The position numbers were made by a program, and so were the translations under genes. From Geotalea uraniireducens Rf4 (lineage in GTDB: Bacteria > Desulfobacterota > Desulfuromonadia > Geobacterales > Geobacteraceae): a stretch of 32,000 nt of DNA. Shown in pieces: positions 2,750-30,266 of this stretch; within the stretch, counting starts at the first letter, position 1; each line of letters begins with the position of its first letter. The notes below the pieces were generated by a model, which saw only the letters and a program-made list of their open reading frames with translations, ran no database searches and was not told the origin of the DNA. The DNA lies in contig NC_009483.1 in the NCBI RefSeq assembly GCF_000016745.1, positions 570,001 through 602,000 on the forward strand. The letters are read 5' to 3'.

Positions 2750-5700
2750 ATGAAGAAAAAGCTGGGGTGGGGATCTGCTGGTAAGTTGTTTTTGTTTCTG
2801 GCTTTGTCGTTCGTCAATCTTTGCGTGACTGCTGGGAATGCAAGTGCCGCGCTGGATTGTAATGGCTGTCATGGTACTTCGAGCCCAACCGATTATCGGC
2901 CGGTTGATGCCGGATATCGAAATATTACAACAGGTGGCATCCAGGGTAACCATCGGACGCATATGGCTTTGACGTCCAATCAGTCAAGCTGTACGCCTTG
3001 TCACAATAGTGCCGGATTTACCAGCAGCCACCGTGACGGCAAGATCAGCTTCCAGGCAAACATCAACGGGTCGCCGCTTGCCGCTACTTACGGTAAAGGC
3101 GTATTCGTCAATCAGACATCGAACCCGGTGATGACTAATGCAAACTGTTCGAATGCCAACTGTCACTTCGAATCTATTACCCCCACATGGGGTTCGTCAG
3201 CGGCTTCGACAAACTGTGATACCTGCCATGCGGCACAGCCGTCTACCCTGAGTCATCCAAAGCACGTGACCGCTTTTGGCGGAACAGCTTCCTGTATAAA
3301 ATGCCATCCGAATCGGACCACCTTCGAGCATGCGACCAGCGCCGGTAATGCCGGCCGCAATATAGCCGTGACGATCGGCAGCTATGCCGGCTCCAACTAT
3401 AATTACCTCCCCAGTCAGTCGGCCACCCGGACAGCCGGTAGCTGTTCCGCCCTTTATTGCCACAGCTCCGGTCAGTCGGCAACCGGTGGAGCACTTACCG
3501 GTGGTGATTATGTGACCGCAACCTGGGATAGTGCTGCGAGCGGCGCCTGCGGCACCTGTCATAAAAACACTGCGGCGACCATCGCCAGCGGCAGCCACAA
3601 CAAACACCTTAATGCAGCCGGTTCGGCCGGATGCGTAGACTGTCACGTCGGCGTAACAGGCGACGGCGTATCCTACAACTCGACCCGTCACGTCGATACC
3701 TTCATCAACGTCACCGGCGCATACAGCCAGGGCAAGGCAAGCACCCCCGGCAACGGCTACGGCACCTGTTCGGCCGCCGCCTGTCACGACAACGGTACCG
3801 GCACCAAAGTGATAACCCCGACCTGGGGCAACACGGCAGCCGCCTGTACAGCCTGTCATGCATTGCAGCCCGCAACCGGCAGCCACACCAAACATCTCAG
3901 CACCACACAGTACACCAAGGCAAATTGCGCCTCCTGTCATGCCAGCGCAGTGGAAGGCTCCAATGGCGGCACAGGGCACCTTGACGGAAACATAGACGCA
4001 ATCAATGGCTATCCCGCCAACAAGACCAAGGGGAGCGCCTACGCAACATGTAATGCCGCATACTGCCACAGCCCCGGCCAGTCGGTCACCGGCGGCGCCC
4101 TGACGACCGAGTATGCCACCATCACCTGGGGCGGCACCGCAGCCTGCGGCAGCTGTCACAACGCCACCAAGGCGACCATCGCCAGCGGCAGCCACAACAA
4201 ACACCTTAATGCAGCCGGTTCGGCCGGATGCGTAGACTGTCACGTCGGCGTAACAGGCGACGGCGTATCCTACAACTCGACCCGTCACGTCGATACCTTC
4301 ATCAACGTCACCGGCGCATACAGCCAGGGCAAGGCAAGCACCCCCGGCAACGGCTACGGCACCTGTTCGGCCGCCGCCTGTCATGACAACGGTACCGGCA
4401 CCAAAGTGATAACCCCGACCTGGGGCAACACGGCAGCCGCCTGTACAGCCTGTCATGCATTGCAGCCCGCAACCGGCAGCCACACCAAACATCTCAGCAC
4501 CACACAGTACACCAAGGCAAATTGCGCCTCCTGTCATGCCAGCGCAGTGGAAGGCTCCAATGGCGGCACAGGGCACCTTGACGGAAACATAGACGCAACC
4601 AACGGCTATCCCGCAAACAAGACCAAGGGGAGCGCCTATGCAACATGTAATGCCGCATACTGCCACAGCCCCGGCCAGTCGGTCACCGGCGGCGCCCTGA
4701 CGATCGAGTATGCCACCATCACCTGGGGCGGCACCGCAGCCTGCGGCAGCTGTCACAATGCCACCAAGGCGACCATCGCCAGCGGCAGCCACAACAAACA
4801 CCTTAATGCAGCCGGTTCGGCCGGATGCGTAGACTGTCACGTCGGCGTAACAGGCGACGGCGTATCCTACAACTCGACCCGTCACGTCGATACCTTCATC
4901 AACGTCACCGGCGCATACAGCCAGGGCAAGGCAAGCACCCCCGGCAACGGCTACGGCACCTGTTCGGCCGCCGCCTGTCACGACAACGGTACCGGCACCA
5001 AAGTGATAACCCCGACCTGGGGCAACACGGCAGCCGCCTGTACAGCCTGTCATGCATTGCAGCCCGCAACCGGCAGCCACACCAAACATCTCAGCACCAC
5101 ACAGTACACCAAGGCAAATTGCGCCTCCTGTCATGCCAGCGCAGTGGAAGGCTCCAATGGCGGCACAGGGCACCTTGACGGAAACATAGACGCAATCAAT
5201 GGCTATCCCGCCAACAAGACCAAGGGGAGCGCCTATGCAACATGTAATGCCGCATACTGCCACAGCCCCGGCCAGTCGGCCACCGGCGGCGCCCTGACGA
5301 CCGAGTACGCCACCGTCACCTGGGGCGATACAGTTGGCTGCGGCAGCTGTCACAACGCCACTTCTGCAACATTGAACAGCGGCACCCATGCCAAGCATCT
5401 TGCCGTCGATGCTAATTGCGCCAACTGTCATGCCGGCGCTGTGGGCAATGGTGTCTCATACAACTCCACCAATCATGTCAACTCTCTTATTGAGGTTTCG
5501 GCTGGTGCATACAACGGAGCCGGCACTCCCGGCAACGGCTACGGTTCCTGTTCAACTACACCTTGTCACTTCTCCAGCACGGGCAGCGTAACATGGGGTG
5601 CTGATACGGTTACGACTTCCTGCGAGAAGTGTCACGGCTCTGCGAATACTGCCCAGCCTGCTGCAGGCGGCACATTCAAGTCCACGGCAGGTGCTACCGC

Positions 5701-6595
5701 CAACACCGATGTCAAGGTCGGTGCCCACGTCGCCCACCTTGGCTCCAATACGACTGCAGGTCACCAGATTACGGTGAACCTCTCCTGCGCCGACTGTCAT
5801 AAATCTGTGAGCAGCTTCAATGATGCTAATCACATCCACGCCGGCCAGAGTGTCGGGGAGGCTGGTATGGCCTGGAGTGCACTCGCTGCTACTGGTGGCG
5901 TAACGCCCAGCTACGACCCGGTCACCGGCAACTGTACCAACTACTGCCACGGTGCAACACTTGCCGATGGCACAACAGCGACCAAGCAGACAGCCAAATG
6001 GAACCAGCCGCTTCTTTCAGGGGCTCCTGCACTGACCAACTGCGGTGTCTGTCACGGTAACCCACCGGCAACAAGCGGCCATATCTCAAATCCGGTCGGT
6101 CCGGTTTATGTAGCGCAAAACTCCTGTAACGGCTGTCACAGCGATGTAAATACCGATGGTATGACCATTGCTGACAAAACAATGCATGCGAACGGTGTTG
6201 TTGACGGCGGCAGCTGTAATGCTTGTCACGGTTACCCGCCGGTCAAGGATATGGCAGGTCTCGGTATACAAAACAGCTACACCACTGCCCGCCTCCAGAA
6301 CTACTCCGGTGGTGGCGGAGCACACAATGTTCCCGGTCATATCGCTCTCATGGCGAAGGCAACCGACTCCTGGTCGCCATGCTTGATCTGCCATCCATCT
6401 GCCAGCCATAACCAGGGTAGCGGCGTCTTTGTTCCGGGTAATGTTCAGGTTTCGGTTGATTCTAAATTCAAGTTTGACTCGAAGCTGCCGATTACGTATA
6501 CTGGCAACCAAACTGGGTCCCCTCTCTCTACCGGTTCATGTTCAAACGTAAGCTGTCACTTCAAAGCATCGCCTAAGTGGAGTACAGAAAGATAA
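2750..6595 (+). CDS. giant exported multiheme c-type cytochrome (~35 heme-type motifs, CX4CH..CXXCH Geobacter-type modules)
   Basis: AGGAG at 2739-2743 lies 6 nt before ATG 2750. The N-terminus is a Sec-type signal peptide (MKKKLGWGSAGKLFLFLALSFVNLCVTAGNASA). I count 24 CXXCH, 10 CX4CH and 1 CX3CH (CTNYCH, nt 5933-5950). Composition is rich in Gly/Ala/Thr/Ser/Asn/Cys/His, and the gene contains a 597-bp tandem repeat array. Confidence 0.95.
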   Translation: MKKKLGWGSAGKLFLFLALSFVNLCVTAGNASAALDCNGCHGTSSPTDYRPVDAGYRNITTGGIQGNHRTHMALTSNQSSCTPCHNSAGFTSSHRDGKISFQANINGSPLAATYGKGVFVNQTSNPVMTNANCSNANCHFESITPTWGSSAASTNCDTCHAAQPSTLSHPKHVTAFGGTASCIKCHPNRTTFEHATSAGNAGRNIAVTIGSYAGSNYNYLPSQSATRTAGSCSALYCHSSGQSATGGALTGGDYVTATWDSAASGACGTCHKNTAATIASGSHNKHLNAAGSAGCVDCHVGVTGDGVSYNSTRHVDTFINVTGAYSQGKASTPGNGYGTCSAAACHDNGTGTKVITPTWGNTAAACTACHALQPATGSHTKHLSTTQYTKANCASCHASAVEGSNGGTGHLDGNIDAINGYPANKTKGSAYATCNAAYCHSPGQSVTGGALTTEYATITWGGTAACGSCHNATKATIASGSHNKHLNAAGSAGCVDCHVGVTGDGVSYNSTRHVDTFINVTGAYSQGKASTPGNGYGTCSAAACHDNGTGTKVITPTWGNTAAACTACHALQPATGSHTKHLSTTQYTKANCASCHASAVEGSNGGTGHLDGNIDATNGYPANKTKGSAYATCNAAYCHSPGQSVTGGALTIEYATITWGGTAACGSCHNATKATIASGSHNKHLNAAGSAGCVDCHVGVTGDGVSYNSTRHVDTFINVTGAYSQGKASTPGNGYGTCSAAACHDNGTGTKVITPTWGNTAAACTACHALQPATGSHTKHLSTTQYTKANCASCHASAVEGSNGGTGHLDGNIDAINGYPANKTKGSAYATCNAAYCHSPGQSATGGALTTEYATVTWGDTVGCGSCHNATSATLNSGTHAKHLAVDANCANCHAGAVGNGVSYNSTNHVNSLIEVSAGAYNGAGTPGNGYGSCSTTPCHFSSTGSVTWGADTVTTSCEKCHGSANTAQPAAGGTFKSTAGATANTDVKVGAHVAHLGSNTTAGHQITVNLSCADCHKSVSSFNDANHIHAGQSVGEAGMAWSALAATGGVTPSYDPVTGNCTNYCHGATLADGTTATKQTAKWNQPLLSGAPALTNCGVCHGNPPATSGHISNPVGPVYVAQNSCNGCHSDVNTDGMTIADKTMHANGVVDGGSCNACHGYPPVKDMAGLGIQNSYTTARLQNYSGGGGAHNVPGHIALMAKATDSWSPCLICHPSASHNQGSGVFVPGNVQVSVDSKFKFDSKLPITYTGNQTGSPLSTGSCSNVSCHFKASPKWSTER
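3157..5279 (+). repeat. segmental duplication copy A (partner 7114..9236)
   Basis: It aligns with 7114-9236 at a constant offset of 3957 nt. I found only three mismatches by eye: T3253/C7210, T4704/C8661 and T5236/C9193. Confidence 0.95.
3581..5279 (+). repeat. in-frame tandem repeat, period 597 bp (199 aa), about 2.85 copies
   Basis: Unit starts fall at 3581, 4178 and 4775, checked against the identical out-of-frame ATGs at 3631, 4228 and 4825. Copies differ at only about 7 positions per unit. The array degrades after 5279. Confidence 0.95.
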
Positions 6596-6633: not shown

Positions 6634-6691
6634 TATTGAGGATGCCAGTATGAGAATACAATCGTCTTTAGTTATAGGTAAGGAGTCAAGT

Positions 6692-9600
6692 ATGAAGACA
6701 TTTTACAGCGCAGGATATTTCAGAAAACCGGCTTTATTCTTGCTGTTGTCCTTGATGACTATATTCGTCTTTGCAGCTTCGGCGTTTGCGTTAACCGGCA
6801 ACAAGATTGATCAGTGTTATGATTGTCACGGCAGTCCGGGCGATAACCGGCCATTGGACGCCGTATACAGGGATATGACAAGTGGCGCGTTCCCCGGTAA
6901 CCATCGGACGCATATGGCTTCGACGGCTACTGCTTCATCGTGTGTCCCCTGTCATAACAACAGTGGATTTACGATCGACCACCGTAACGGAAAGATCCAG
7001 TTCGCGGCGAATGTCAACACATCGCCTGCAACCGGTAAGTACATGAAGTACGGCTTCCAGGCTTTCACCTCCAGTCAGGTTTCCAGCCCTACCCTCGGCA
7101 CATGTGCCACCGTCAACTGTCACTTCGAATCTATTACCCCCACATGGGGTTCGTCAGCGGCTTCGACAAACTGTGATACCTGCCATGCGGCACAGCCGTC
7201 TACCCTGAGCCATCCAAAGCACGTGACCGCTTTTGGCGGAACAGCTTCCTGTATAAAATGCCATCCGAATCGGACCACCTTCGAGCATGCGACCAGCGCC
7301 GGTAATGCCGGCCGCAATATAGCCGTGACGATCGGCAGCTATGCCGGCTCCAACTATAATTACCTCCCCAGTCAGTCGGCCACCCGGACAGCCGGTAGCT
7401 GTTCCGCCCTTTATTGCCACAGCTCCGGTCAGTCGGCAACCGGTGGAGCACTTACCGGTGGTGATTATGTGACCGCAACCTGGGATAGTGCTGCGAGCGG
7501 CGCCTGCGGCACCTGTCATAAAAACACTGCGGCGACCATCGCCAGCGGCAGCCACAACAAACACCTTAATGCAGCCGGTTCGGCCGGATGCGTAGACTGT
7601 CACGTCGGCGTAACAGGCGACGGCGTATCCTACAACTCGACCCGTCACGTCGATACCTTCATCAACGTCACCGGCGCATACAGCCAGGGCAAGGCAAGCA
7701 CCCCCGGCAACGGCTACGGCACCTGTTCGGCCGCCGCCTGTCACGACAACGGTACCGGCACCAAAGTGATAACCCCGACCTGGGGCAACACGGCAGCCGC
7801 CTGTACAGCCTGTCATGCATTGCAGCCCGCAACCGGCAGCCACACCAAACATCTCAGCACCACACAGTACACCAAGGCAAATTGCGCCTCCTGTCATGCC
7901 AGCGCAGTGGAAGGCTCCAATGGCGGCACAGGGCACCTTGACGGAAACATAGACGCAATCAATGGCTATCCCGCCAACAAGACCAAGGGGAGCGCCTACG
8001 CAACATGTAATGCCGCATACTGCCACAGCCCCGGCCAGTCGGTCACCGGCGGCGCCCTGACGACCGAGTATGCCACCATCACCTGGGGCGGCACCGCAGC
8101 CTGCGGCAGCTGTCACAACGCCACCAAGGCGACCATCGCCAGCGGCAGCCACAACAAACACCTTAATGCAGCCGGTTCGGCCGGATGCGTAGACTGTCAC
8201 GTCGGCGTAACAGGCGACGGCGTATCCTACAACTCGACCCGTCACGTCGATACCTTCATCAACGTCACCGGCGCATACAGCCAGGGCAAGGCAAGCACCC
8301 CCGGCAACGGCTACGGCACCTGTTCGGCCGCCGCCTGTCATGACAACGGTACCGGCACCAAAGTGATAACCCCGACCTGGGGCAACACGGCAGCCGCCTG
8401 TACAGCCTGTCATGCATTGCAGCCCGCAACCGGCAGCCACACCAAACATCTCAGCACCACACAGTACACCAAGGCAAATTGCGCCTCCTGTCATGCCAGC
8501 GCAGTGGAAGGCTCCAATGGCGGCACAGGGCACCTTGACGGAAACATAGACGCAACCAACGGCTATCCCGCAAACAAGACCAAGGGGAGCGCCTATGCAA
8601 CATGTAATGCCGCATACTGCCACAGCCCCGGCCAGTCGGTCACCGGCGGCGCCCTGACGACCGAGTATGCCACCATCACCTGGGGCGGCACCGCAGCCTG
8701 CGGCAGCTGTCACAATGCCACCAAGGCGACCATCGCCAGCGGCAGCCACAACAAACACCTTAATGCAGCCGGTTCGGCCGGATGCGTAGACTGTCACGTC
8801 GGCGTAACAGGCGACGGCGTATCCTACAACTCGACCCGTCACGTCGATACCTTCATCAACGTCACCGGCGCATACAGCCAGGGCAAGGCAAGCACCCCCG
8901 GCAACGGCTACGGCACCTGTTCGGCCGCCGCCTGTCACGACAACGGTACCGGCACCAAAGTGATAACCCCGACCTGGGGCAACACGGCAGCCGCCTGTAC
9001 AGCCTGTCATGCATTGCAGCCCGCAACCGGCAGCCACACCAAACATCTCAGCACCACACAGTACACCAAGGCAAATTGCGCCTCCTGTCATGCCAGCGCA
9101 GTGGAAGGCTCCAATGGCGGCACAGGGCACCTTGACGGAAACATAGACGCAATCAATGGCTATCCCGCCAACAAGACCAAGGGGAGCGCCTACGCAACAT
9201 GTAATGCCGCATACTGCCACAGCCCCGGCCAGTCGGTCACCGGCGGCGCCCTGACGACCGAGTATGCCACCATCACCTGGGGCGGCACCGCAGCCTGCGG
9301 CAGCTGTCACAACGCCACCAAGGCGACCATCGCCAGCGGCAGCCACAACAAACACCTTAACGCAGCCGGTTCGGCCGGTTGCGTAGACTGTCACGTCGGC
9401 GTAACAGGCGATGGCGTATCTTACAACTCGACCCGTCACGTCGATACCTTCATCAACGTCACCGGCGCATACAGCCAGGGCAAGGCAAGCACCCCCGGCA
9501 ACGGCTACGGCACCTGTTCGGCCGCCGCCTGTCATGACAACGGTACCGGCACCAAGGCGGTAACCCCGACCTGGGGCGACACGGCAGCCGCCTGTACCGC

Positions 9601-10850: not shown

Positions 10851-10871
10851 GGTTCACCTCATGGGTGGACC
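10851..10871 (+). other. weak intergenic hairpin between cytochrome genes 3 and 4
   Basis: GGTTCACC (10851-10858) pairs with GGTGGACC (10864-10871) with one G-U pair and loop TCATG, followed by GGGTTTC. The U-tract is poor. Confidence 0.25.
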
Positions 10872-10927
10872 GGGTTTCATTCAAATCGTTCCTGTTTGAT
10901 ACAATTCCATTACGAGGTGAAGTCACC

Positions 10928-15508: not shown

Positions 15509-15533
15509 GAATCACAATGGAGATATCTTCAGC

Positions 15534-18334: not shown

Positions 18335-18939
18335 TGAGCCCACGAATTTACACGATTGGCTGTATGATAGTGCTGTTAGCCGGTATTCTTGTTCTTACTT
18401 TGGGATATGGTCCCTTAACTCGGGTGTTTGTTTCGCCGCCACGCTGTGAGGTTGCGGGTTCCTCTGCGGATATCTTTCGGTTTTGGAAGTCCATTGGGGT
18501 AAAAGGACGGGTTGCAGTTGTGTTTACCCGCCGGCTGAATGGTGAGGTGGTAGGCAAAGAAGTAGAATCATCGGTCAAGTATGTTGAGGCTGCCCTGCAG
18601 CAAGGAATGGTGCGGACAGTGTACCATGTCGTGCCTGATGGGGCATGGAGCGAGGTATCGGAGAAACTCTCGCGGATGCCGGGGGTAAGGCCAATTGAGT
18701 CGGGCTTTGCCATCCTGTTCGGCGCCGGGAGGGTGCATGTGCTCCCCTTGTCACACTTCACGCCGATCCAGGAAAAGGCGCTCGTGGTGGTTGCACCAGC
18801 TGAATGGACGATAGATGAATATGGAGTGATTGTCAATTTGATAAAACAGCAGCGGGTTCCAGCGGATCTGCTGGCGGTGCTGCGGGGCTCTGATGCCGAG
18901 GTGGCCAGATTGTGTGAGGCGCTGGCAGTATCCCGATAG
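18334..18939 (+). CDS. hypothetical single-pass membrane protein, translationally coupled to the PMT-like gene
   Basis: The start (GTG 18331 or ATG 18334) overlaps the upstream TGA stop (GTGATG). The product has an N-terminal TM helix (IYTIGCMIVLLAGILVLTLGY) followed by a ~170-aa soluble domain in which I recognise no motif. Confidence 0.6.
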   Translation: MSPRIYTIGCMIVLLAGILVLTLGYGPLTRVFVSPPRCEVAGSSADIFRFWKSIGVKGRVAVVFTRRLNGEVVGKEVESSVKYVEAALQQGMVRTVYHVVPDGAWSEVSEKLSRMPGVRPIESGFAILFGAGRVHVLPLSHFTPIQEKALVVVAPAEWTIDEYGVIVNLIKQQRVPADLLAVLRGSDAEVARLCEALAVSR

Positions 18940-23839: not shown

Positions 23840-24891
23840 GATGGCGGCTCACCAGCAGGGCCTTTTTGTTGTCTGACAACAAGCGGGATGACTCCTGCCG
23901 GACGGTTTGAGTAGAAGCGTTTTAAGTTCGGCTCAATTCCCACAAGAGCGAGGATTTGGCCGATGGTTGTCCCCAGGTAGCAGAGCAGTATGGCTGCCAG
24001 TGTGAGCGGTATTTCCCGTATTGATATACAGGCTTGTGCCGCCATAACAGCAGCGACTGCAAGGTTGATAAAAGCAAATATCATGGACGCTAACATACTT
24101 CCGGCGCTGCACATTTCGTACACGAAAAGGGCAAGAAACAGCCCCAGCCAGCCTAGAGGCAGGTACAGTGCCACGTTGAAGCGGTTGAACTGTCGCTTGC
24201 CGATGGCGACCGAACCATGGCCGTAAGTGATCCGCTGTAGCAAAAAGGGTATCCACAAGGAACGGTTGTGGTGATATACGATAACGTCCCGATGAAAATA
24301 GATCCGCTTTCCGGTTTCCCGGATACGGTCACATAGGTTGCGGTCTTCGCCGGTGAAAAGTGTTTCGTCAAAGCCTCCCAGAGTATCGAAGGCATGTCGG
24401 GACAGTATCAGGTTGCATGAGTGCAGACTGGAGCAATCTCGGCTCGCGGAGAGCTTTTTTGCGAAATGGAGCGGACCGGATACCAGGAATGTCTGCTGTG
24501 CATTCCCGACGACCCTCTGCAGCAGCGGTTCATCCGGTGGGGTGATATTGGGGCCACCAACGGCCCAGACGTCAGGGTGGTTGGCAAGGTATGCAACCCC
24601 GTTTTTCAGCCAGTTAACGTCGGGGTAGGCGTCGGAATCAATAAGGGCAAAATAGTCTGCACCGCTGAAATGGCGAATGGCGATGTTCCGTTTAGCAGCA
24701 ATGGTGAGGTCGCCGGTGACAATGATGGAAATGTTGTCGTGTAGAAACTCCGGCGGGAGAGAAACGGGCTGGTCTGGCAGCAAAATGATGTGAAATTGGG
24801 GATAGTCGAGTGCTTGGCACTCTTTAAGGCATTGGAGCAGATATTCGTTCATTGAGACGAACGGTATGACAATAACGCAACTCCCGTTCAT
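23836..24891 (-). CDS. glycosyltransferase family 2 with C-terminal transmembrane helices
   Basis: It has a GT-A start (CVIVIPFVSMNEY), an IDSDAY (DxD-type) motif, FTGEDRNLCDRI, a QxxRW-like LLQRITYG and 3-4 C-terminal hydrophobic helices. ATG 24891 forms an ATGA overlap with the upstream stop, whereas the longer ORF to 24969 would overlap by 82 nt. Confidence 0.8.
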   Translation of the reverse strand: MNGSCVIVIPFVSMNEYLLQCLKECQALDYPQFHIILLPDQPVSLPPEFLHDNISIIVTGDLTIAAKRNIAIRHFSGADYFALIDSDAYPDVNWLKNGVAYLANHPDVWAVGGPNITPPDEPLLQRVVGNAQQTFLVSGPLHFAKKLSASRDCSSLHSCNLILSRHAFDTLGGFDETLFTGEDRNLCDRIRETGKRIYFHRDVIVYHHNRSLWIPFLLQRITYGHGSVAIGKRQFNRFNVALYLPLGWLGLFLALFVYEMCSAGSMLASMIFAFINLAVAAVMAAQACISIREIPLTLAAILLCYLGTTIGQILALVGIEPNLKRFYSNRPAGVIPLVVRQQKGPAGEPPS

Positions 24892-26036
24892 GCTAGCTCT
24901 TTCAACGTGTTGAGTGCCAGGCTGGGCCAGTATGAAGGTGTTGTCAGGATGTTGACCGTCCAGGCGCATTCAAAGGTGCAGTGACATTTTGTTTTACTTA
25001 TTTCGTGTCGTGCATTTTGGGCACGCTGGCTATTCAAAAGTTTCAGGAAGTTCATTTCGTAGTCTCGCAGGTTTCCCAGCGGCATCCTCTCTGTTAACAG
25101 TTCGCACGGTGCTACGGTGCCGTCAGCAGTGATAGTCACGAAGAGAGAGCCTGCCTTGCATGGCGATATGAAGCGTGGATTGAGGCATGAGTCATGCAAA
25201 ATGCGATGGGATATCCGCTTTTTTGCACGGTGTAAGGCACGGGTGAATTCTCCCGGTGCAGCAGAACCTGTTTCTTCCGTCAGCCGGGTCAGTTCTCGGT
25301 ATGCAGACGCCAGTTTCTGTTTGTTCGCGATAGAGTTCTGAACACCTTCCTCGCGCAGCATGATCGGGGATACTGTGTTTATACCAGTCTGCTGCAGGCG
25401 GTGGTATATTTCGGTGATAGTGTCAGCGTTTTCCGGTGTGACAGTCAGTGCGATATCAGCATTGATACGCGGATCTTTGCATGCGGCGACAGCTCGGTAT
25501 GATTCAATGGCATGGGCATAGAGCCCCGCTAATTGCCTTCCGGAATCATGTTTCTGCTCGATGTTATCGATTGAGATCGAAATCGTAAGGCTGCATGGGG
25601 TGTCAAGGCGTGAATAGCGTTTGAGAAGCGTTCTGATCGCATCGGTAAACCAGCCGTTGGTGGTAATGACAATTGAACGGACAGGTGTGTGCTGAATATA
25701 GCAAGAAACGATGTCGAACAGGTCGTCCCGGAGGAATGGCTCACCGCCGGTCAGGTTGACATTGTAGAGAGTTTTACCCAAGTTCCGGGCGAGTCGTACG
25801 ATCTCGTCAAGCGCCAATTCATTCGCACGGTCTATTGGGGTACTGAAATCAATGAAGCAGTGTTTACACCGGGCATTGCATCTAGTCGTCACGAAGTGCA
25901 CAACGCTGAATGGTTCGTGACGTTGTATGAATCGATTATGGAGCAATGCTGTAATGTGGGGACGCATGAAGGTATATGTAATTCCGATTGAGTCGAGTAA
26001 AAAAATGCCGTTAATTTGATTTAGATATAGTATCAA
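24888..26036 (-). CDS. radical SAM enzyme with SPASM/twitch-like C-terminal Cys-rich domain (paralog A), first gene of operon
   Basis: It carries TTRCNARCKHC (CX3CX2C) and LTGGEPFL. The C-terminus has CKAGSLFVTITADGTVAPC (CX12GX4C) and CHCTFEC. The start is ambiguous between TTG 26036 and ATG 25967 (MRPHITALL..), and neither has a clear Shine-Dalgarno sequence. Confidence 0.8.
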   Translation of the reverse strand: MILYLNQINGIFLLDSIGITYTFMRPHITALLHNRFIQRHEPFSVVHFVTTRCNARCKHCFIDFSTPIDRANELALDEIVRLARNLGKTLYNVNLTGGEPFLRDDLFDIVSCYIQHTPVRSIVITTNGWFTDAIRTLLKRYSRLDTPCSLTISISIDNIEQKHDSGRQLAGLYAHAIESYRAVAACKDPRINADIALTVTPENADTITEIYHRLQQTGINTVSPIMLREEGVQNSIANKQKLASAYRELTRLTEETGSAAPGEFTRALHRAKKRISHRILHDSCLNPRFISPCKAGSLFVTITADGTVAPCELLTERMPLGNLRDYEMNFLKLLNSQRAQNARHEISKTKCHCTFECAWTVNILTTPSYWPSLALNTLKELA

Positions 26037-26160
26037 AACCGAAGTCTTGCGTACAAGATAATTATCAAAGGTGGAGTGTCTGAATAAAATGCACTCTTCC
26101 TTGCTTATCTTTTTACTATTGTGGTAGTCTTACAGCTCAGTAACCTTTGGATGGAGATTT

Positions 26161-27324
26161 ATGAACGAATTTATTACCCCCCCCGAAGCCGAACCAGAAA
26201 ACGAAGTGTTTCCTGTTGAACCCCGTTATCACCCGGTACATAAAATTCCCCGAAAAATTTACGATTTCTTTGCATCTGCCAAGCTGGCAATGGCTCTGCT
26301 GGTAATTATCCTGGCATGTTGCCTGACAGGGGTTACCATCCTGCGAGGGGCGCGGGCCTGGAGCCTGATCTTTAACACGCTCTGGTTCAATGCCCTGCTG
26401 GTACTGTTGGTGGTGAATGTGGCCTGCTGTTTTTTCGGCAGGATATGGCACAGGAAGCTGACGCTGATTACTTTTGGCATGATCCTGTTTCACCTCAGTT
26501 TTGTGGCGATACTTGGAGGAATCATTTACAACAGCCTGTTCTATTTCAGGGGAAATATCCGGCTGACCGAGGGGGAGGTCCTCCCGAGCGGTGATCCTCA
26601 GAGTTACGATCTGATTGACAAAGGGCGTTTTTTCTCCTTTGCGCGATTGAAGGGCGAGACATCGCTCGTCAAAATGCATGTCGGCTACAAGGTTGCCGGC
26701 GAGGACAAGCGGGCTGCATACGAAGTGGCGGTCGGCGAGGACGGTGACAGGAAGCAGGGTATCATTTACATTACCCATAAGTTGACCCACAAGGGATTCG
26801 ATTACTTCAACGACAAGGAAGGATATTCGCTGCTGGTCACGCTTTCCAACAAGCAGGGGCAGGATCTGTACGGGGCTTATCTGCCGCTGCAGAGCATTCA
26901 GCAGAAGGATGACAGTTACTTGTATACAACCGGTTACAAAGAGGGGGGCTTGGTTAGGGTGGACGCTATTCGGTTTCCGGTTCCTCCTGAGAAGCCACGT
27001 TTTGCCCTGCAGGTTACGTATCAGCCGTCCAAGCTGAAGGAGCGTGGAGGGGATGCGGCGTTCCTGCTTTTTGCGATTGATGAGAAAGGGATGCTGAAAT
27101 CCGACAAGCCAGTTGCCGAAGGAAAGGCCTCCATCGGGGAGCAGTTTGCCGCCGGCGAGTATATCCTGTCGGCCAAGGAGGTGCGTTACTGGGTTGGCAT
27201 GCTGGTGCGCTACGAGCCGGGCAAGCCGATTGTGCTTGCAAGCCTCTGGGTGGGGCTGGCCGGGATGATCATCACGACGATAGGGCGGATGAGGAAAGGC
27301 AAGGCATATGGGAAGGCTTCCTGA
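26161..27324 (+). CDS. ccsB: System II cytochrome c biogenesis protein ResB/CcsB
   Basis: GGAG lies 4 nt before the ATG. FFASAKLAMALLVIILACCLTGVTI (TM1), LWFNALLVLLVVNVACCFFGRIW (TM2) and a His-containing TM3 (MILFHLSFVAILGG) precede a large soluble loop and a C-terminal TM. This is the typical ResB topology and N-terminal signature. Confidence 0.8.
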   Translation: MNEFITPPEAEPENEVFPVEPRYHPVHKIPRKIYDFFASAKLAMALLVIILACCLTGVTILRGARAWSLIFNTLWFNALLVLLVVNVACCFFGRIWHRKLTLITFGMILFHLSFVAILGGIIYNSLFYFRGNIRLTEGEVLPSGDPQSYDLIDKGRFFSFARLKGETSLVKMHVGYKVAGEDKRAAYEVAVGEDGDRKQGIIYITHKLTHKGFDYFNDKEGYSLLVTLSNKQGQDLYGAYLPLQSIQQKDDSYLYTTGYKEGGLVRVDAIRFPVPPEKPRFALQVTYQPSKLKERGGDAAFLLFAIDEKGMLKSDKPVAEGKASIGEQFAAGEYILSAKEVRYWVGMLVRYEPGKPIVLASLWVGLAGMIITTIGRMRKGKAYGKAS

Positions 27325-27561: not shown

Positions 27562-28389
27562 ATGAAGCCAGAACTCATGTTGTTTTGGACCGCAGTTTCG
27601 CTGTATGGCATTAGCACCTTCAGCTACATCTTCGGCATGATTGCAAAGCAGGACAAGCTCTTCACCATTGGCCTGTTCAGCGCTGTGGCAGGATTTGTGC
27701 CCCATGTTGCTGTGATTGCCCTGCGCTGGTCTGCGACCGGTATAACTCCTTTCATTGATATTTCCGAATCTCTCACGCTCGGGATATTCATGACGGTACT
27801 GCTGTTTCTGGTGTTCCAGTTCTCCACGAAAAAAGTTCGCCCCCTTGGCGTGTTGGTGATGCCCGTTGCCTTTGTGCTGTTGGGGTGGGCCGGAACGCTG
27901 ATGAAAGAGGTTGCCGCAACCCTGGCGCCTGCTCTGCAGAGCGGCTGGATATGGGTGCATATTGTCGGGGCTTCGGCCGGTTTTGCGTCGGTGCTGATTG
28001 CAGCGGGGCTTGGACTTATGTATCTACTTAAGGAAAATAAATCCGGCGGCATCTATGATAAGCTACCGGATCTTGCAACACTTGATATGTTTTCGTACCG
28101 TTTTGTTGCCGGCGGGTTTATCCTCTATGGTCTGATGATGATATCGGGATGCTTCTGGTCCAACCAGGTCAAGGGGAGTTACTGGGGATGGGATCCGGTG
28201 GAGGTGTGGTCGCTGGTTTCCTGGCTTACCTACGGCATTTATCTGCACCTGCGGGTAACCTTCGGCTGGCGCGGCAGAAGGCTGGCATGGTATGCGCTGA
28301 TTGCACTTATCGCCATGATCGTCAGCTACTGGGGGATACCGTTCACCGTGGAAACATTTCATAGTGGTTTCAGGATCGATCATAAGTGA
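27562..28389 (+). CDS. ccsA: System II cytochrome c synthase subunit CcsA/ResC (heme-handling WWD protein)
   Basis: GGAGGTG lies 6 nt before the ATG. The protein is polytopic and carries the Trp-rich WWD signature WGWDPVEVWSLVSWLTYGIYLHLR with flanking conserved-type His residues. Confidence 0.88.
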   Translation: MKPELMLFWTAVSLYGISTFSYIFGMIAKQDKLFTIGLFSAVAGFVPHVAVIALRWSATGITPFIDISESLTLGIFMTVLLFLVFQFSTKKVRPLGVLVMPVAFVLLGWAGTLMKEVAATLAPALQSGWIWVHIVGASAGFASVLIAAGLGLMYLLKENKSGGIYDKLPDLATLDMFSYRFVAGGFILYGLMMISGCFWSNQVKGSYWGWDPVEVWSLVSWLTYGIYLHLRVTFGWRGRRLAWYALIALIAMIVSYWGIPFTVETFHSGFRIDHK

Positions 28390-28445
28390 ATATAATTTAA
28401 AAACGTAACGTTAATGTAAACAAAAATGTTACGGGAGAAATTGCC

Positions 28446-28928
28446 GTGCGGAAAATAGTTGTTGTTGCCATTTTGTGCTTTTTATTATTTATGGCTGCAT
28501 GTACTGAAAGAAATGTTGAGTCTGTAAAAAAGCCGAATGCGAAGAGTACTGAAATGACGGTGCATGGGGGAGAAGCTGCTAATTCAGAACCTGTCAGTCT
28601 TTCGGGTATTGTCAAAAATCAGTCCTTGCCTGCGTACCCAGCAATGACCGTCGGCAAGGCATTTGACAGTTACTCTCATCTCACGAAAAAGCAATGGAAA
28701 GAGACCCATGGAGCCAATGGTACAGTATACATTGATTTCTCCGGTTGGCTTGATGGCAAAACGCTTGGAGTTGAGGTCAAGTTTGTAATCGATCGGGAGG
28801 GGGTATTTTTTGTCGGCATGGCATCGAAGCTGGAGGCTATGACCGATGGCAGGGTCTTTGCCTATCCGCTGCCAGATGTGAAGGCGGTCTTGGATAGTAT
28901 CTATGCCAACAAGGAGATAGTCCTTTAG
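28446..28928 (+). CDS. small hypothetical lipoprotein
   Basis: GGGAGA lies 7 nt before GTG 28446. The signal peptide has a lipobox-like end (MRKIVVVAILCFLLFMAAC). The stop TAG is immediately followed by the ATG of the next gene. Confidence 0.6.
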   Translation: MRKIVVVAILCFLLFMAACTERNVESVKKPNAKSTEMTVHGGEAANSEPVSLSGIVKNQSLPAYPAMTVGKAFDSYSHLTKKQWKETHGANGTVYIDFSGWLDGKTLGVEVKFVIDREGVFFVGMASKLEAMTDGRVFAYPLPDVKAVLDSIYANKEIVL

Positions 28929-30266
28929 ATGAAACTCGCAATCATATTTCCTCCCCTCCCCTTCGGCTGGACCCCGGTGGCCCCGCCGATCCTGGAGTAT
29001 CTGGCCGCGCTTACCCGCAGGGTCGATCCGTCTATCGAGATTGAACTGATCAGCGCCAGTGCCACACCAGACGCCTTTGACAAGTTGGAGTGCGACTTGG
29101 CGTCCATCAGTATTCTGACGCCGACGGCGGTGCCGGGGTACCATATTGCCGACGGTCTGCGGGCGCGGGGCATCAAGGTCGTGTTTGGCGGTATGCATGC
29201 TTCCGCCATGCCTGAGGAGGCCAAATCCCACGGGGATGCAGTGGTCATCGGTGAGGCGGAGTCGGCTTGGCCCGAGGTGCTGCGTGATTTTCGCGCCGGT
29301 CAGCTGAAACCTTTTTATCGTGGTGAACAACTACCTCTCAACGATCTACCCACGCCTCTCTACGGAAAGTTGGGAGGGGGACATCAGTTCCGCGTCATCA
29401 ATACTTCGCGCGGTTGTCCATACAACTGTACATTCTGTTCAGTGAAGCCTTTCTTCGGGGCAAGTATCCGATTCCGTCCCATCGAGGATGTGGTGCGCGA
29501 TGTATGCGCGATCCCCGAAAAGATGTATATCAACGGGGACGAGAATATCTGGTGGGAAGGCTTTGAGCAGCGGGCAATAGATCTGTTCACAGCACTCAAG
29601 GTGGCGAAAAAAAAGTGGATGGGCTTTGGCAGCCTGCGTCCGGTGCTGTCGCCGGCGGGGTCGCGGATGTTGAACGCGGCCCGTGAAAGCGGCATGCTGA
29701 CCGTCTGGGTCGGCTGGGATGCCATATCTGACGAGTCGCTGACGGCGTATAAGGCCAACGGCAAGGTAGGCGTCGACCGCGAACGAGCAGTGCGCACGCT
29801 TAGGGATCATGGTATCGATGTGTCGCTGTTTTATATGCTTGGCAGCCGCGAGGATTCCCTGGACGATTTCAAGCGCTCCGTAGAGGTCGCCGACAGATTG
29901 GGAGTAAGTATGCATCCTTCGCTGGTAGTCCCCTATCCGGGGACGGAACTGCGCCAGCAGTATGAACCCTATCTGTATAAGGAGCTGGGTTGGGAGTACT
30001 ATACCGGGGCGTACGCGTTGTTTGACCATCCGGATGCGGCCATGACCCCGGAAGCGCGGGAAGAGGCGTTTTACGAAAGTTCGCTGGAGCTGTTGAGTCT
30101 GCCGCGGGTGCTGCGGCACATGTTCAAGGTCCCCTTGTCGGGATTTCCCTATGCCCACATCCTTTCGCTCATGAACCAGCTTCCGGTCCGAAAAGGGATG
30201 AAGATAGCGTATGAGCAATGGAAAGCTTCCAAAAAGGCTGTGGGTGAAAAACAGATCATTGTGTAA
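28929..30266 (+). CDS. class-B radical SAM enzyme (cobalamin-binding-type domain + radical SAM core), second copy in window
   Basis: The N-terminal Rossmann-like domain (MKLAIIFPP..ILTPTAVPGYHIADGLRARGIKVVFGGMH) is followed by NTSRGCPYNCTFC (CX3CX2C). Confidence 0.85.
   Translation: MKLAIIFPPLPFGWTPVAPPILEYLAALTRRVDPSIEIELISASATPDAFDKLECDLASISILTPTAVPGYHIADGLRARGIKVVFGGMHASAMPEEAKSHGDAVVIGEAESAWPEVLRDFRAGQLKPFYRGEQLPLNDLPTPLYGKLGGGHQFRVINTSRGCPYNCTFCSVKPFFGASIRFRPIEDVVRDVCAIPEKMYINGDENIWWEGFEQRAIDLFTALKVAKKKWMGFGSLRPVLSPAGSRMLNAARESGMLTVWVGWDAISDESLTAYKANGKVGVDRERAVRTLRDHGIDVSLFYMLGSREDSLDDFKRSVEVADRLGVSMHPSLVVPYPGTELRQQYEPYLYKELGWEYYTGAYALFDHPDAAMTPEAREEAFYESSLELLSLPRVLRHMFKVPLSGFPYAHILSLMNQLPVRKGMKIAYEQWKASKKAVGEKQIIV

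What the first reader, a model, noticed from the sequence alone, without database searches (positions are those of the whole stretch)
2750..30266. Locus-level hypothesis: a production and decoration island for giant CX4CH-rich extracellular cytochromes
Within 28 kb the window combines three things. First, four giant exported cytochromes with ~112 heme-type motifs, 31 of them non-canonical (27 CX4CH, 3 CX3CH, 1 CX5CH). Second, a complete System II heme-attachment pair, CcsB/CcsA. Third, a set of modification enzymes: a periplasm-facing lipid-linked-sugar transferase (PMT-like), cytoplasmic GT2 and GT9, and five radical SAM enzymes. No housekeeping genes interrupt the region. The co-localisation is observed directly, but a functional link is inference. 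If real, this would be a dedicated maturation system (heme ligation plus glycosylation or other tailoring) for wire-like cytochromes, which to my knowledge has not been described.
Basis: inference. Interest (0 to 1): 0.75.

Follow-up and report, generated by a model that had tools for sequence, protein, structure and literature searches.

The report
Giant-cytochrome maturation and glycosylation island
This stretch of an uncultured metal-respirer-like bacterium encodes four huge many-haem electron-carrier proteins next to their own haem-attachment enzymes and a sugar-attachment kit. The same combination was already listed in Geobacter genomes in 2009, but its function has never been tested.

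Summary
There are four large cytochromes with 112 haem motifs (27 CX4CH, 3 CX3CH, 1 CX5CH). There is also a ResB/CcsA pair, a PMT-like GT-C enzyme, GT2, GT9 and five intact radical SAM genes, with no housekeeping genes between them.

Comparative genomics splits the island into layers:
- **Conserved core:** big cytochrome(s), PD40 propeller, ResB-like, CcsA, small lipoprotein, B12-radical SAM, LuxE. It recurs in most of 77 related loci and in Geobacter pickeringii. It is collinear with GSU2891-2888 and Gmet_0592-0597.
- **PMT-like enzyme and its 200-aa partner:** a tiny subfamily (~68 sequences). Five of seven independently sampled contexts sit beside this core. Its model is closest to protein O-mannosyltransferases.
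- **GT9/radical SAM cassette:** a portable sugar-tailoring module found in 454 species genomes. Most lack nearby cytochromes, and it joins the core only occasionally.

The haem-ligation link is therefore well supported, though Aklujkar proposed it in 2009. Glycosylation of the cytochromes is plausible and unproven. Specificity for CX4CH is not shown. G. metallireducens Gmet_0571-0601 already holds the same gene mix, so this is a new member of a known but uncharacterised kind.

The parts
2..2005 (+). cytA: C-terminal 667 aa of a multihaem cytochrome, cut by the window edge. 19 haem motifs (3 CX4CH, 1 CX3CH).
   Evidence: TIGR01904 at 93.7 bits.
2006..2749 (.). 744-nt low-GC (about 40%) intergenic region upstream of cytB. 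Probable promoter region of the cytB-cytC-cytD unit (inference).
2750..6595 (+). cytB: 1281-aa exported cytochrome with 35 haem motifs (10 CX4CH, 1 CX3CH). Built of three-haem units and contains 3 copies of a 597-nt six-haem repeat.
   Evidence: TIGR01904 at 291 bits.
6650..10831 (+). cytC: 1393-aa paralogue of cytB (80% identical over about 1070 aa). 38 haem motifs (12 CX4CH) and 4 copies of the 597-nt repeat.
   Evidence: TIGR01904 at 342 bits.
10865..15418 (+). cytD: 1517 aa. It has an N-terminal anchor, a Ser/Thr-rich (26%) region of about 650 aa with four 285-nt tandem repeats (11610-12744), and a C-terminal domain with 20 haem motifs. This is the cytochrome type that is conserved next to PD40 and ResB in relatives.
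15475..15502 (+). Intrinsic-terminator-like hairpin (11 pairs, 7 G-C, then a T run) between cytD and PD40.
15507..16907 (+). PD40 beta-propeller protein with an N-terminal hydrophobic, lipobox-like segment. Conserved between the cytochrome and ResB in 31/41 related loci.
17084..18334 (+). PMT-like GT-C glycosyltransferase (GT39-like, 416 aa, no MIR domain). Member of a narrow subfamily tied to this core.
18331..18939 (+). hyp202: single-TM 202-aa protein, translationally coupled to the PMT-like gene and always paired with it in relatives. Function unknown.
18988..20403 (-). B12-binding radical SAM enzyme (class B), last gene of the minus-strand operon.
20455..21558 (-). rSAM_a: radical SAM/SPASM enzyme.
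21555..22622 (-). rSAM_b: radical SAM/SPASM enzyme and marker of the portable cassette (454 species genomes). Closest solved structure is the sugar-nucleoside decarboxylase BlsE.
22619..23839 (-). GT9 (heptosyltransferase-family) glycosyltransferase.
23836..24891 (-). GT2 glycosyltransferase with C-terminal TM helices. Candidate lipid-phosphate-sugar synthase (inference).
24888..25967 (-). rSAM_c: radical SAM/SPASM enzyme, first gene of the minus-strand operon. Start taken from the gene call in L001.
25968..26160 (.). 193-nt divergent intergenic region shared by the GT/radical SAM operon and the resB operon.
26161..27324 (+). ResB-like (CcsB) System II subunit. It has 4 TM helices, a large periplasmic domain and invariant His111. 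73% identical to the G. pickeringii homologue.
27562..28389 (+). CcsA/ResC System II subunit with a WWD motif (YWGWDPVEVW) and candidate haem-ligand histidines (H133, H229, H267).
28446..28928 (+). lipo160: small predicted lipoprotein. It holds the same position as GSU2889/Gmet_0596.
28929..30266 (+). B12rSAM2: B12-binding radical SAM enzyme, 73-87% identical across core loci. It holds the same position as GSU2888/Gmet_0597.
30610..32000 (+). LuxE-family acyl-protein synthetase gene, running off the window end. Counterpart of GSU2893/Gmet_0595.

Best explanation
The window is a metagenomic counterpart of the Geobacter 'cytochrome c biogenesis gene cluster 3' (GSU2887-2893 and Gmet_0571-0601). 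It has three layers.

**(1) Conserved core.** Tandem giant cytochromes built from repeated three-haem units (one CX4CH plus two CXXCH each), a PD40 propeller protein, a divergent extra copy of the System II synthase (ResB-like plus CcsA), a small lipoprotein, a B12-radical SAM enzyme and a LuxE-type adenylating enzyme.
- Inferred mechanism: the apocytochromes are exported. ResB/CcsA export haem and attach it to the many motifs of the neighbouring cytochromes.
- The B12-radical SAM and LuxE enzymes add an unknown further step.

**(2) A protein-O-mannosyltransferase-like GT-C enzyme with its 200-aa partner.** It is almost confined to this genomic context.
- Inferred mechanism: it transfers a polyprenyl-phosphate-linked sugar in the periplasm to Ser/Thr-rich parts of the co-encoded cytochromes (cytD is the best candidate) or of an associated surface protein.

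**(3) A portable cassette: GT2, GT9, three SPASM radical SAM enzymes and one B12-radical SAM enzyme.**
- Inferred mechanism: it makes and tailors the sugar.
- The cassette is used in many lineages for other acceptors and has been recruited here.

Gene content, motifs, folds and synteny are shown. Every catalytic role and every acceptor is inferred.
For: **Core.**
- ResB-anchored scan of metagenomes analysed: cytochrome with at least 5 haems upstream in 26/31 loci, PD40 in 31/41, CcsA in 33/42, B12rSAM2 in 19/27.
- G. pickeringii G13 shows cyt, cyt, PD40, ResB, CcsA, small protein, B12-radical SAM, LuxE with no GT genes.
- Table S5 of PMC2700814 gives the same order for GSU2891-2888 and Gmet_0592-0597. 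It also places GT9, Fe-S/radical SAM and GT2 genes (Gmet_0585-0589) between omcN and ResB.
- CcsA keeps its WWD motif and histidines, and ResB keeps 4 TM helices and invariant His111.

**PMT layer.**
- Only about 68 close homologues among 5.8 billion sequences, then a drop to 29% identity.
- Contexts L168, L169, L172, L173 and L174 have ResB and/or CcsA within 10 kb, in different arrangements.
- The model has pLDDT 94 and is closest to Pmt4 and Pmt1/2 (TM 0.79-0.82), against ArnT at 0.53-0.55 and OST/PglB at 0.5-0.59.
- D39-E40 is invariant.
- Small GT2 genes next to PMT in relatives resemble polyprenyl-phosphate hexose synthases.
- cytD-type cytochromes have N-terminal regions of 400-1260 aa with 24-30% Ser+Thr.

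**Cassette.**
- Translationally coupled operon with four 4-nt overlaps, divergent from resB across 193 nt.
- It lies between resB and ccsA in L008, L011, L013, L017 and L104. It lies between the B12-radical SAM and LuxE genes, on the same strand, in L018 and L157.
- The closest solved structure to rSAM_b is a sugar-nucleoside radical SAM enzyme.

**Precedent.** An OmcE cluster sits next to resB/ccsB and GT2/GT4/GT39/TPR genes, and OmcE carries putative glycan densities.
Against: - No expression, proteomic or genetic data link any of these enzymes to the cytochromes.
- The GT9/radical SAM cassette occurs in 454 species genomes. Cytochromes are absent within 10 kb in all 63 distant loci and in about half of the 17 closest loci.
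- Only 2/28 ResB loci carry the cassette, and only 4/28 carry the PMT-like gene.
- One PMT context (L171) has LuxE and radical SAM genes but no ResB, CcsA or cytochrome within 10 kb.
- Ser/Thr richness of the cytochromes does not differ between loci with and without PMT, so it does not discriminate.
- Five core loci have cytochromes without any CX4CH.
- A terminator-like hairpin separates cytD from PD40 and PMT.
- Many related loci share ancestry, so the counts are not independent events.
- LuxE was seen in only 5/17 loci with at least 6 kb downstream.
Confidence: 0.55

Rival explanations
1. The glycosyltransferase/radical SAM genes (and possibly PMT) build or modify a general envelope glycan such as LPS core, exopolysaccharide or a glycolipid. 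They merely sit in a variable, insertion-prone region beside the cytochrome genes and have no effect on the cytochromes.
For: - The rSAM_b family is in 454 species genomes across many phyla, including CPR bacteria and DPANN archaea.
- 0/63 distant loci have cytochromes nearby.
- Its recurrent neighbours elsewhere are a small GT2, GT9, TPR-bearing GT-C proteins, carbamoyltransferase, epimerase and sulfotransferases.
- GT9 is the LPS heptosyltransferase family.
- Most core loci have no GT genes.
Against: - The PMT-like subfamily is tiny and lies beside ResB/CcsA in 5 of 7 sampled contexts.
- Glycan genes are wedged between resB and ccsA, or inside the same-strand array, in at least four different arrangements.
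- The GT-C model is closest to protein O-mannosyltransferases, not to ArnT.
Confidence: 0.25
2. The glycan module makes a surface polysaccharide or glycoconjugate matrix that anchors or organises the giant cytochromes outside the cell, rather than glycosylating them covalently. This would be analogous to the Xap polysaccharide that anchors cytochromes in G. sulfurreducens (from my own knowledge, not checked here).
For: - Relatives carry many TPR-bearing multi-TM GT-C proteins, carbamoyltransferase and methyltransferases in long arrays next to ResB.
- The linkage to the cytochrome core is real, yet no acceptor-site signature distinguishes the cytochromes.
Against: - The PMT-like fold points to a protein acceptor.
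- No polysaccharide export genes (Wzx/Wzy/Wza, ABC exporter) were seen in the window.
Confidence: 0.12
3. The ResB-like/CcsA pair, together with the very highly conserved B12-radical SAM and LuxE enzymes, does something other than plain haem ligation. One possibility is export of a modified haem, or installation of a further covalent modification on haem or protein.
For: - CcsA, B12rSAM2 and LuxE are the most conserved genes of the locus (68-90% identity). ResB is at 47-79% and PD40 and cytD at 30-44%.
- Both System II proteins fall below or outside the NCBIfam equivalog cut-offs.
- No named family fits B12rSAM2.
Against: - The WWD motif and the haem-ligand histidines are intact.
- The simplest role next to proteins with 20-38 haem motifs is haem attachment.
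- In one locus LuxE and a radical SAM gene occur with the glycan genes and without CcsA. This suggests they may belong to the sugar or lipid side instead.
Confidence: 0.08

Closest known systems
Geobacter 'cytochrome c biogenesis gene cluster 3': GSU2899-GSU2880 and Gmet_0571-Gmet_0601 (Aklujkar et al. 2009, PMC2700814, Table S5)
   Same: - Giant multihaem cytochromes (13 to 34 haem sites in the table).
- Extra ResB-like and ResC/HemX-like pairs.
- The order ResB, ResC, hypothetical protein, radical SAM, plus an acyl-protein synthetase (LuxE).
- In G. metallireducens, also GT9, Fe-S/radical SAM and GT2 genes between omcN and ResB.
- ResB here is 73% identical to that of G. pickeringii, whose locus has the same core.
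- The authors already proposed that each pair serves the cytochromes encoded nearby.
   Different: - Different arrangement. Here the GT/radical SAM operon is inverted and sits between PD40-PMT and ResB.
- A PMT-like GT-C gene with its partner is present, which Table S5 does not list.
- cytB and cytC are recent 80%-identical duplicates with 597-nt repeat expansion.
- The source is an uncultured organism with no species representative in the genome scan (best rSAM_b match 68%).
OmcE nanowire gene cluster with adjacent glycosylation genes (bioRxiv 10.1101/2025.10.22.684050)
   Same: A cytochrome cluster lies next to resB/ccsB and beta-propeller lipoproteins. In Geobacter and Geomonas it is followed by GT2, GT4, GT39 (the PMT family), sugar-modification enzymes, methyltransferases and TPR proteins. 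The authors relate this to putative glycan densities on OmcE.
   Different: - The OmcE cluster is built around a small four-haem filament subunit and a large beta-barrel protein. No such small cytochrome is in this window.
- The ResB/CcsB there is the conserved housekeeping pair (GSU0613/0614 region), not this paralogue.
- Radical SAM enzymes are not mentioned there.
Dedicated System II haem lyase isoenzymes of Wolinella succinogenes (CcsA1 for CX15CH of MccA, NrfI for CXXCK of NrfA). From my own knowledge; the topic is touched on in PMC10663686 and PMC12285233.
   Same: An extra System II synthase paralogue is encoded beside the cytochrome it is thought to serve, and that cytochrome carries non-standard haem motifs.
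   Different: - Those are fused CcsBA proteins with genetically proven motif specificity.
- Here the pair is split and specificity is untested.
- CX4CH is absent from the cytochromes of several related loci.
- CX4CH haem sites are matured by general systems elsewhere, for example in cytochrome c3 (my own knowledge).
Protein O-mannosyltransferases (GT39: fungal Pmt1/2/4, actinobacterial Pmt)
   Same: - Pfam PMT/PMT_2 above cut-off.
- Invariant Asp-Glu in the first loop.
- Predicted fold closest to Pmt4 and Pmt1/2 (TM 0.79-0.82).
- A lipid-phosphate-sugar synthase-like GT2 lies nearby.
   Different: - Only 416 aa, with no MIR domain.
- Always paired with an uncharacterised 200-aa single-TM protein.
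- Sugar and acceptor are unknown.
- Below the NCBIfam PMT and ArnT equivalog cut-offs.
Polymers of c7-type three-haem domains such as GSU1996 (my own knowledge; Pfam PF14522 Cytochrome_C7)
   Same: Repeated three-haem modules strung in one chain. Pfam Cytochrome_C7 hits at 112-124 bits in cytB and cytC.
   Different: - One of the three sites per module here is CX4CH (TIGR01904 domain).
- There are 35-38 haems rather than 12.
- No sequence match to any solved structure at E <= 0.001.

Membership tests
System II cytochrome c synthase (CcsB/ResB + CcsA/ResC) | CcsA carries the periplasmic tryptophan-rich WWD motif. | tested here: met
   YWGWDPVEVW at about residues 208-217 of the 27562-28389 product. 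PF01578 at 109.8 bits against a cut-off of 29.9.
System II cytochrome c synthase (CcsB/ResB + CcsA/ResC) | Conserved haem-ligand histidines: two periplasmic and one TM in CcsA, and one TM in ResB. | tested here: met
   CcsA has H133, H229 and H267 in the expected places relative to WWD. This is by inspection; their conservation was not checked in an alignment. ResB H111 in TM3 is invariant in 30 homologues.
System II cytochrome c synthase (CcsB/ResB + CcsA/ResC) | Reaches the curated equivalog score of the canonical proteins. | tested here: not met
   CcsA scores 169.3 bits against the TIGR03144 cut-off of 187.6. ResB-like matches no NCBIfam model, and its Pfam ResB match is 52.7 bits in two short stretches. 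These are divergent paralogues.
System II cytochrome c synthase (CcsB/ResB + CcsA/ResC) | Attaches haem to apocytochromes; specificity for the neighbouring cytochromes or for CX4CH. | not testable with these tools
   Only synteny is available: 26/31 loci have a cytochrome upstream, and 22/31 have at least one CX4CH.
CxxxxCH/CxxCH-domain c-type cytochromes (TIGR01904 / PF09698) | Repeated CX4CH...CXXCH domain scoring above the curated cut-off. | tested here: met
   cytB scores 291.4 bits (10 stretches), cytC 342.2 bits (12 stretches), cytA 93.7 and cytD 32.7, against a cut-off of 27.
Geobacter cytochrome c biogenesis cluster 3 (GSU2887-2893 / Gmet_0571-0601) | Gene order ResB, ResC, hypothetical protein, radical SAM with LuxE and giant cytochromes; in G. 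metallireducens also GT9, radical SAM and GT2. | tested here: met
   The window order ResB, CcsA, lipo160, B12rSAM2, LuxE matches Table S5 and the G. pickeringii locus L086, with 73-84% identity for ResB, CcsA, B12rSAM2 and LuxE. The G. metallireducens and G. sulfurreducens sequences themselves were not compared.
Protein O-mannosyltransferase (GT39, GT-C fold) | PMT/PMT_2 domain and the Asp-Glu motif in the first extracytoplasmic loop. | tested here: met
   PF13231 at 64.6 bits and PF02366 at 59.9 bits, both above cut-off. D39-E40 is invariant in 46 sequences.
Protein O-mannosyltransferase (GT39, GT-C fold) | Fold closer to PMTs than to other GT-C enzymes. | tested here: met
   The model has pLDDT 94.3. 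Foldseek gives Pmt4 9i5k at E 1.4e-9 and TMq 0.79, and Pmt1/2 6p25 at TMq 0.79-0.82. ArnT gives 0.53-0.55 and OST/PglB 0.49-0.59.
Protein O-mannosyltransferase (GT39, GT-C fold) | Luminal MIR domain (eukaryotic PMTs). | tested here: not met
   The protein is 416 aa against about 700 aa. No MIR hit, and the model covers only the TM core.
Protein O-mannosyltransferase (GT39, GT-C fold) | Transfers mannose from polyprenyl-phosphate-mannose to Ser/Thr of secreted proteins. | not testable with these tools
   Only indirect hints: adjacent GT2 genes resembling lipid-phosphate-hexose synthases in relatives, and Ser/Thr-rich cytochromes.
Radical SAM superfamily (SPASM and B12-binding classes) | CX3CX2C cluster motif, plus SPASM cysteines or a B12-binding domain. 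| tested here: met
   All five genes have CX3CX2C. Three have 6 C-terminal cysteines and PF13186. Two have PF02310.
Radical SAM superfamily (SPASM and B12-binding classes) | Membership of a named, functionally defined radical SAM family (NirJ/AhbD, HpnJ, BchE, PqqE, MftC and others). | tested here: not met
   Every NCBIfam hit is far below its cut-off. The best is HpnJ at 189.7 against 577.6, then NirJ at 113.5 against 515.
LPS heptosyltransferases (GT9) | GT9 domain and the equivalog score of RfaC/RfaF/RfaQ-type enzymes. | tested here: inconclusive
   PF01075 at 106.2 bits is above cut-off. The best equivalog, TIGR02201, scores 108.3 against 170.2. It is in the GT9 family, but not a recognised LPS core enzyme.
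OmcE/OmcS-type cytochrome nanowire cluster | A small (4-6 haem) filament-forming subunit gene in the cluster. | tested here: not met
   Only the four large ORFs in the window carry CXXCH motifs.

The most novel reading that the evidence does not exclude
The conserved set forms a dedicated, multi-step maturation line for giant modular cytochromes. That set is the specialised ResB/CcsA pair, a small lipoprotein, a B12-radical SAM enzyme and a LuxE-type adenylating enzyme, together with a context-specific protein-O-mannosyltransferase-like GT-C enzyme and its unknown partner. In this reading, haem ligation is coupled to a so far unknown radical SAM/adenylation-dependent covalent modification. It is also coupled to O-glycosylation with a radical-SAM-tailored sugar. 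This would be a new class of cytochrome post-translational processing, needed to make or stabilise surface 'wire' cytochromes.
Probability: 0.2. Interest if true: 0.8.

Novelty: new member of a known kind. Interest (0 to 1): 0.55.

Why it matters
Giant multihaem cytochromes are central to metal respiration and microbial electricity, yet how cells load 20-40 haems onto one chain and prepare it for the cell surface is unknown. This work does three things:
- It separates a strongly conserved core (extra ResB/CcsA, B12-radical SAM, LuxE) from a recruited sugar module.
- It identifies a very small PMT-like subfamily that is nearly confined to this context.
- It shows that the same gene mix exists in genetically tractable G. 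metallireducens (Gmet_0585-0597) and G. sulfurreducens (GSU2888-2893).

If it is confirmed, it would extend the recent suggestion of glycosylated OmcE filaments to a general, dedicated cytochrome decoration pathway.

Tried and rejected
- **Left flank.** Look-ups of cytB and cytC as exact proteins found nothing on record. The left boundary and the full cytA are therefore unknown.
- **hyp202.** No Pfam or NCBIfam hit even at E up to 10. A 14-sequence profile against PDB sequences gave nothing. The single-sequence AlphaFold model had pLDDT 50 and was not searched.
- **cytD N-terminal repeats.** Only sub-threshold hints of an Ig-like domain (Big_13 at 19 bits).
- **cytC and cytD against PDB sequences.** No hits.
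- **Ser/Thr test.** I asked whether Ser/Thr richness of cytD-like proteins tracks the presence of PMT. It does not: 24-30% everywhere.
- **Promoters.** The sigma-70 promoter scan was not above the shuffle expectation.
- **Literature.** Searches for Gmet_0585-0597 and GSU2887-2893 returned only the 2009 genome paper and proteomic lists. Searches for glycosylated multihaem cytochromes returned nothing specific.
- **Rejected: the GT9/radical SAM operon is specific to cytochromes**.
- **Rejected: this CcsBA pair is strictly tied to CX4CH**.
- **Rejected: ORF 30586-31584(-) is a gene.** It overlaps the LuxE reading frame.

Full report
**Observation**

On the plus strand:
- A truncated cytochrome, cytA (2-2005).
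- cytB (2750-6595, 1281 aa), cytC (6650-10831, 1393 aa) and cytD (10865-15418, 1517 aa).
- A PD40 beta-propeller protein (15507-16907).
- A PMT/PMT_2 GT-C glycosyltransferase (17084-18334).
- An overlapping 202-aa single-TM protein, hyp202 (18331-18939).

On the minus strand there is a translationally coupled operon with four 4-nt overlaps. In order of transcription:
- Radical SAM/SPASM rSAM_c (24888-25967).
- GT2 (23836-24891).
- GT9 (22619-23839).
- Radical SAM/SPASM rSAM_b (21555-22622).
- Radical SAM/SPASM rSAM_a (20455-21558).
- A B12-binding radical SAM enzyme (18988-20403).

Across a 193-nt divergent gap, the plus strand continues:
- ResB-like (26161-27324) and CcsA (27562-28389).
- A small lipoprotein, lipo160 (28446-28928).
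- A second B12-radical SAM enzyme, B12rSAM2 (28929-30266).

Haem-motif counts are 19, 35, 38 and 20, giving 112 in total. They include 27 CX4CH, 3 CX3CH and 1 CX5CH, exactly as reported.

The motifs form periodic [CX4CH, CXXCH, CXXCH] triads about every 100 aa. They match TIGR01904 at up to 342 bits against a cut-off of 27, so they are a real, curated domain type and not chance.

I make three corrections:
- cytA lies outside the stated coordinates and is incomplete.
- The island continues to the right. A LuxE-family gene starts at 30610, followed by a CopD-like gene and another B12-radical SAM gene.
- ORF 30586-31584(-) is an artefact.

**Source**

The window is 100% identical to Logan contigs SRR9436596_26 and SRR9436595_19 over the stretches they cover. 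Its ResB-like protein is matched at 100% on the JGI contigs Ga0074193_1000012 (354 kb) and JGI24731J21663_1000293, so one of these probably carries the same locus. No species representative in the genome collection is close; the best rSAM_b match is 68%.

**Synteny anchored on the radical SAM cassette**

- rSAM_b has hundreds of homologues and relatives in 454 species-level genomes.
- I annotated the best 80 loci against the window proteins.
- GT9, rSAM_b and rSAM_a, with or without a B12-radical SAM enzyme, form a widespread cassette. It occurs in Geobacterales, Nitrospirota, Planctomycetota, Omnitrophota and Acidobacteriota. rSAM_b alone also occurs in CPR bacteria and DPANN archaea.
- None of the 63 more distant loci has a cytochrome within 10 kb. 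Among the 17 closest loci, about half do.
- Recurrent neighbours elsewhere are a small GT2, multi-TM proteins with C-terminal TPRs, PMT_2 proteins, carbamoyltransferase, epimerase and sulfotransferases.
- The closest solved structure to rSAM_b is the sugar-nucleoside decarboxylase BlsE.

The cassette is therefore a portable sugar-building and sugar-tailoring module, and it is not specific to cytochromes.

**Synteny anchored on ResB**

- The ResB-like protein belongs to a well-conserved subfamily (65-94% identity). It includes G. pickeringii G13 and Geotalea sp. SG265.
- G. pickeringii shows cyt(CX4CH), cyt(CX4CH), PD40, small ORF, ResB, CcsA, small protein, B12-radical SAM, LuxE with no GT genes.
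- Geotalea shows cyt, PD40, ResB followed by three TPR membrane proteins, GT2 and a B12-radical SAM enzyme.

A metagenome scan gave 80 loci. After removing duplicates:

| Feature | Loci with feature / loci with enough flank |
|---|---|
| Cytochrome with at least 5 haems upstream | 26/31 |
| At least one CX4CH | 22/31 |
| PD40 | 31/41 |
| CcsA | 33/42 |
| B12rSAM2 | 19/27 |
| LuxE | 5/17 |
| Any glycan-type gene | 11/28 |
| TPR-bearing GT-C proteins | 8/28 |
| PMT-like | 4/28 |
| GT9/rSAM_b | 2/28 |

CcsA, B12rSAM2 and LuxE are the best-conserved genes (68-90% identity).

The conserved core is therefore cytochrome(s), PD40, ResB, CcsA, lipoprotein, B12-radical SAM, with LuxE often present. Five loci have cytochromes with no CX4CH, so the pairing is with large multihaem cytochromes rather than with that motif as such.

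**Synteny anchored on PMT**

- The PMT-like protein has only about 68 close homologues (40-72% identity) among 5.8 billion sequences. The next hit drops to 29%.
- I sampled seven contexts independently.
- Five contain ResB and/or CcsA within 10 kb, with the gene in different positions:
  - after the B12-radical SAM enzyme (L168);
  - between resB and ccsA, with a small GT2 and a B12-radical SAM enzyme (L169);
  - divergent from ccsA-PD40 (L172, L174);
  - in a long GT-C/TPR array after ResB (L173).
- One context is truncated (L170).
- One has LuxE, radical SAM and GT genes but no ResB, CcsA or cytochrome (L171).
- hyp202 always follows the PMT-like gene.

A 46-sequence alignment gave a confident model with pLDDT 94.3. 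Its best structural matches are protein O-mannosyltransferases: Pmt4 at TM 0.79 and Pmt1/2 at 0.79-0.82. These are well ahead of ArnT (0.53-0.55) and OST/PglB. The Asp-Glu motif is invariant. The small GT2 genes beside PMT in relatives resemble polyprenyl or dolichyl-phosphate hexose synthases.

**Arrangements**

The glycan genes are found in at least four different arrangements relative to the core:
- Here, inverted between PD40-PMT-hyp202 and resB.
- Between resB and ccsA (L008, L011, L013, L017, L104, L169).
- Co-directional between the B12-radical SAM enzyme and LuxE (L018, L157).
- Between omcN and resB in G. metallireducens.

Linkage that persists through rearrangement argues for a functional tie, although shared ancestry inflates the counts.

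**The cytochromes**

- cytB and cytC are 80% identical. They contain 3 and 4 copies of a 597-nt six-haem unit at 94-100% identity.
- cytD has an N-terminal anchor and a 26% Ser/Thr region with four 285-nt repeats. These are possibly Ig-like, at sub-threshold score. Its C-terminal part carries 20 haem motifs.
- cytD is the type conserved next to PD40 in relatives, which have N-terminal regions of 400-1260 aa with 24-30% Ser+Thr.
- This makes cytD a plausible O-glycosylation target. However, the composition does not differ between loci with and without PMT, so the test does not discriminate.
- A terminator-like hairpin follows cytD.

**Literature**

- Aklujkar et al. 2009 (PMC2700814) reported four ResB plus ResC/HemX pairs per Geobacter genome, co-transcribed with multihaem cytochromes. 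They proposed that each pair serves the neighbouring cytochromes.
- Their Table S5 lists GSU2887 (27 haems), 2888 (radical SAM), 2889, 2890 (ResC), 2891 (ResB) and 2893 (acyl-protein synthetase).
- The same table lists Gmet_0571-0601, which also contains GT9 (0585), an Fe-S oxidoreductase (0586), radical SAM (0587) and GT2 (0589).
- No other paper in the library discusses these genes beyond proteomic detection.
- A 2025 preprint links an OmcE cluster beside resB/ccsB with 15-70 GT2/GT4/GT39/TPR genes and with putative glycan densities on OmcE.

**Verdict**

The dedicated haem-ligation link is well supported by synteny but is not new. The PMT-like link is a new and fairly strong synteny signal that points to protein O-glycosylation. 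The GT9/radical SAM operon is a recruited general module.
- CX4CH specificity and extracellular location are unproven.
- The locus is a new member of a catalogued but functionally unexplored Geobacter-type cluster.

Noticed in passing
window 3545-5038 and 7502-9592: A 597-nt (199-aa, six-haem) unit is repeated 3 times in cytB and 4 times in cytC at 94-100% identity, and the two genes are 80% identical overall. This indicates very recent duplication or expansion. Copy number, and so haem count, could be mis-assembled in a short-read metagenome.
   Followed up: partly
window 11610-12744: Four tandem 285-nt repeats in cytD encode Ser/Thr/Pro/Ala-rich modules of about 95 aa (motif ...TASDNVGVTGYLINES...). 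The only family hint is a sub-threshold Ig-like match (Big_13 at 19 bits).
   Followed up: partly
window 15475-15502: A strong terminator-like hairpin (11 pairs plus a T run) lies between cytD and the PD40 gene. The three cytochrome genes may therefore be a separate transcription unit from PD40-PMT-hyp202.
   Followed up: no
window 15507-16907: Residues 81-206 of the PD40 propeller protein match the C-terminal part of the TmcD family, a subunit of the Desulfovibrio Tmc electron-transfer complex. The score is 99 bits, far below the cut-off of 440.
   Followed up: no
window 18331-18939, and L008, L011, L013, L017, L018, L168-L174: hyp202 is a conserved single-TM protein of about 200 aa that always follows, and often overlaps, this PMT-like gene. 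It has invariant R, W, GR, PD and E/D positions. No family, sequence or structure match was found, so it may be an unrecognised GT-C accessory subunit.
   Followed up: partly
window 30610-32000 and L001 1-3304: A LuxE-family acyl-protein synthetase gene runs off the window end. Beyond it lie a 116-aa CopD-like membrane protein and a further B12-radical SAM gene. In locus L171 this LuxE, small protein, B12-radical SAM trio sits with the glycan genes and without CcsA.
   Followed up: partly
L008, L011, L013, L017, L018, L169, L171: MAGs labelled Nitrospirota or Thermodesulfovibrionia carry CcsA, B12-radical SAM and LuxE genes 73-87% identical to those of the window. These in turn resemble those of Geobacter pickeringii (81-84% to the window). 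This suggests either horizontal transfer of the whole island or mis-binning.
   Followed up: no
L037, L041, L043, L049, L053, L072, L075, L085 and others: The rSAM_b family (invariant CX3CX2C plus a CPGCWTPCEAYQ-like C-terminus) occurs in CPR bacteria and DPANN and other archaea. There it sits next to a small GT2, PMT_2 and carbamoyltransferase genes. It looks like an uncharacterised, very widespread sugar-tailoring radical SAM enzyme.
   Followed up: partly
L017 5254-7092 and 13510-17356; L164; L123: Some relatives have tandem duplicates of ccsA (two or three copies) and of the PMT-hyp202 pair within the same island.
   Followed up: no
L086 19725-21158: In G. pickeringii, about 8 kb downstream of the core, a second short ResB-like gene (302 aa) is followed by a NicO/DsbD_2 (CcdA-like) membrane protein. 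This may be the thiol-reduction partner that is missing from the window.
   Followed up: no
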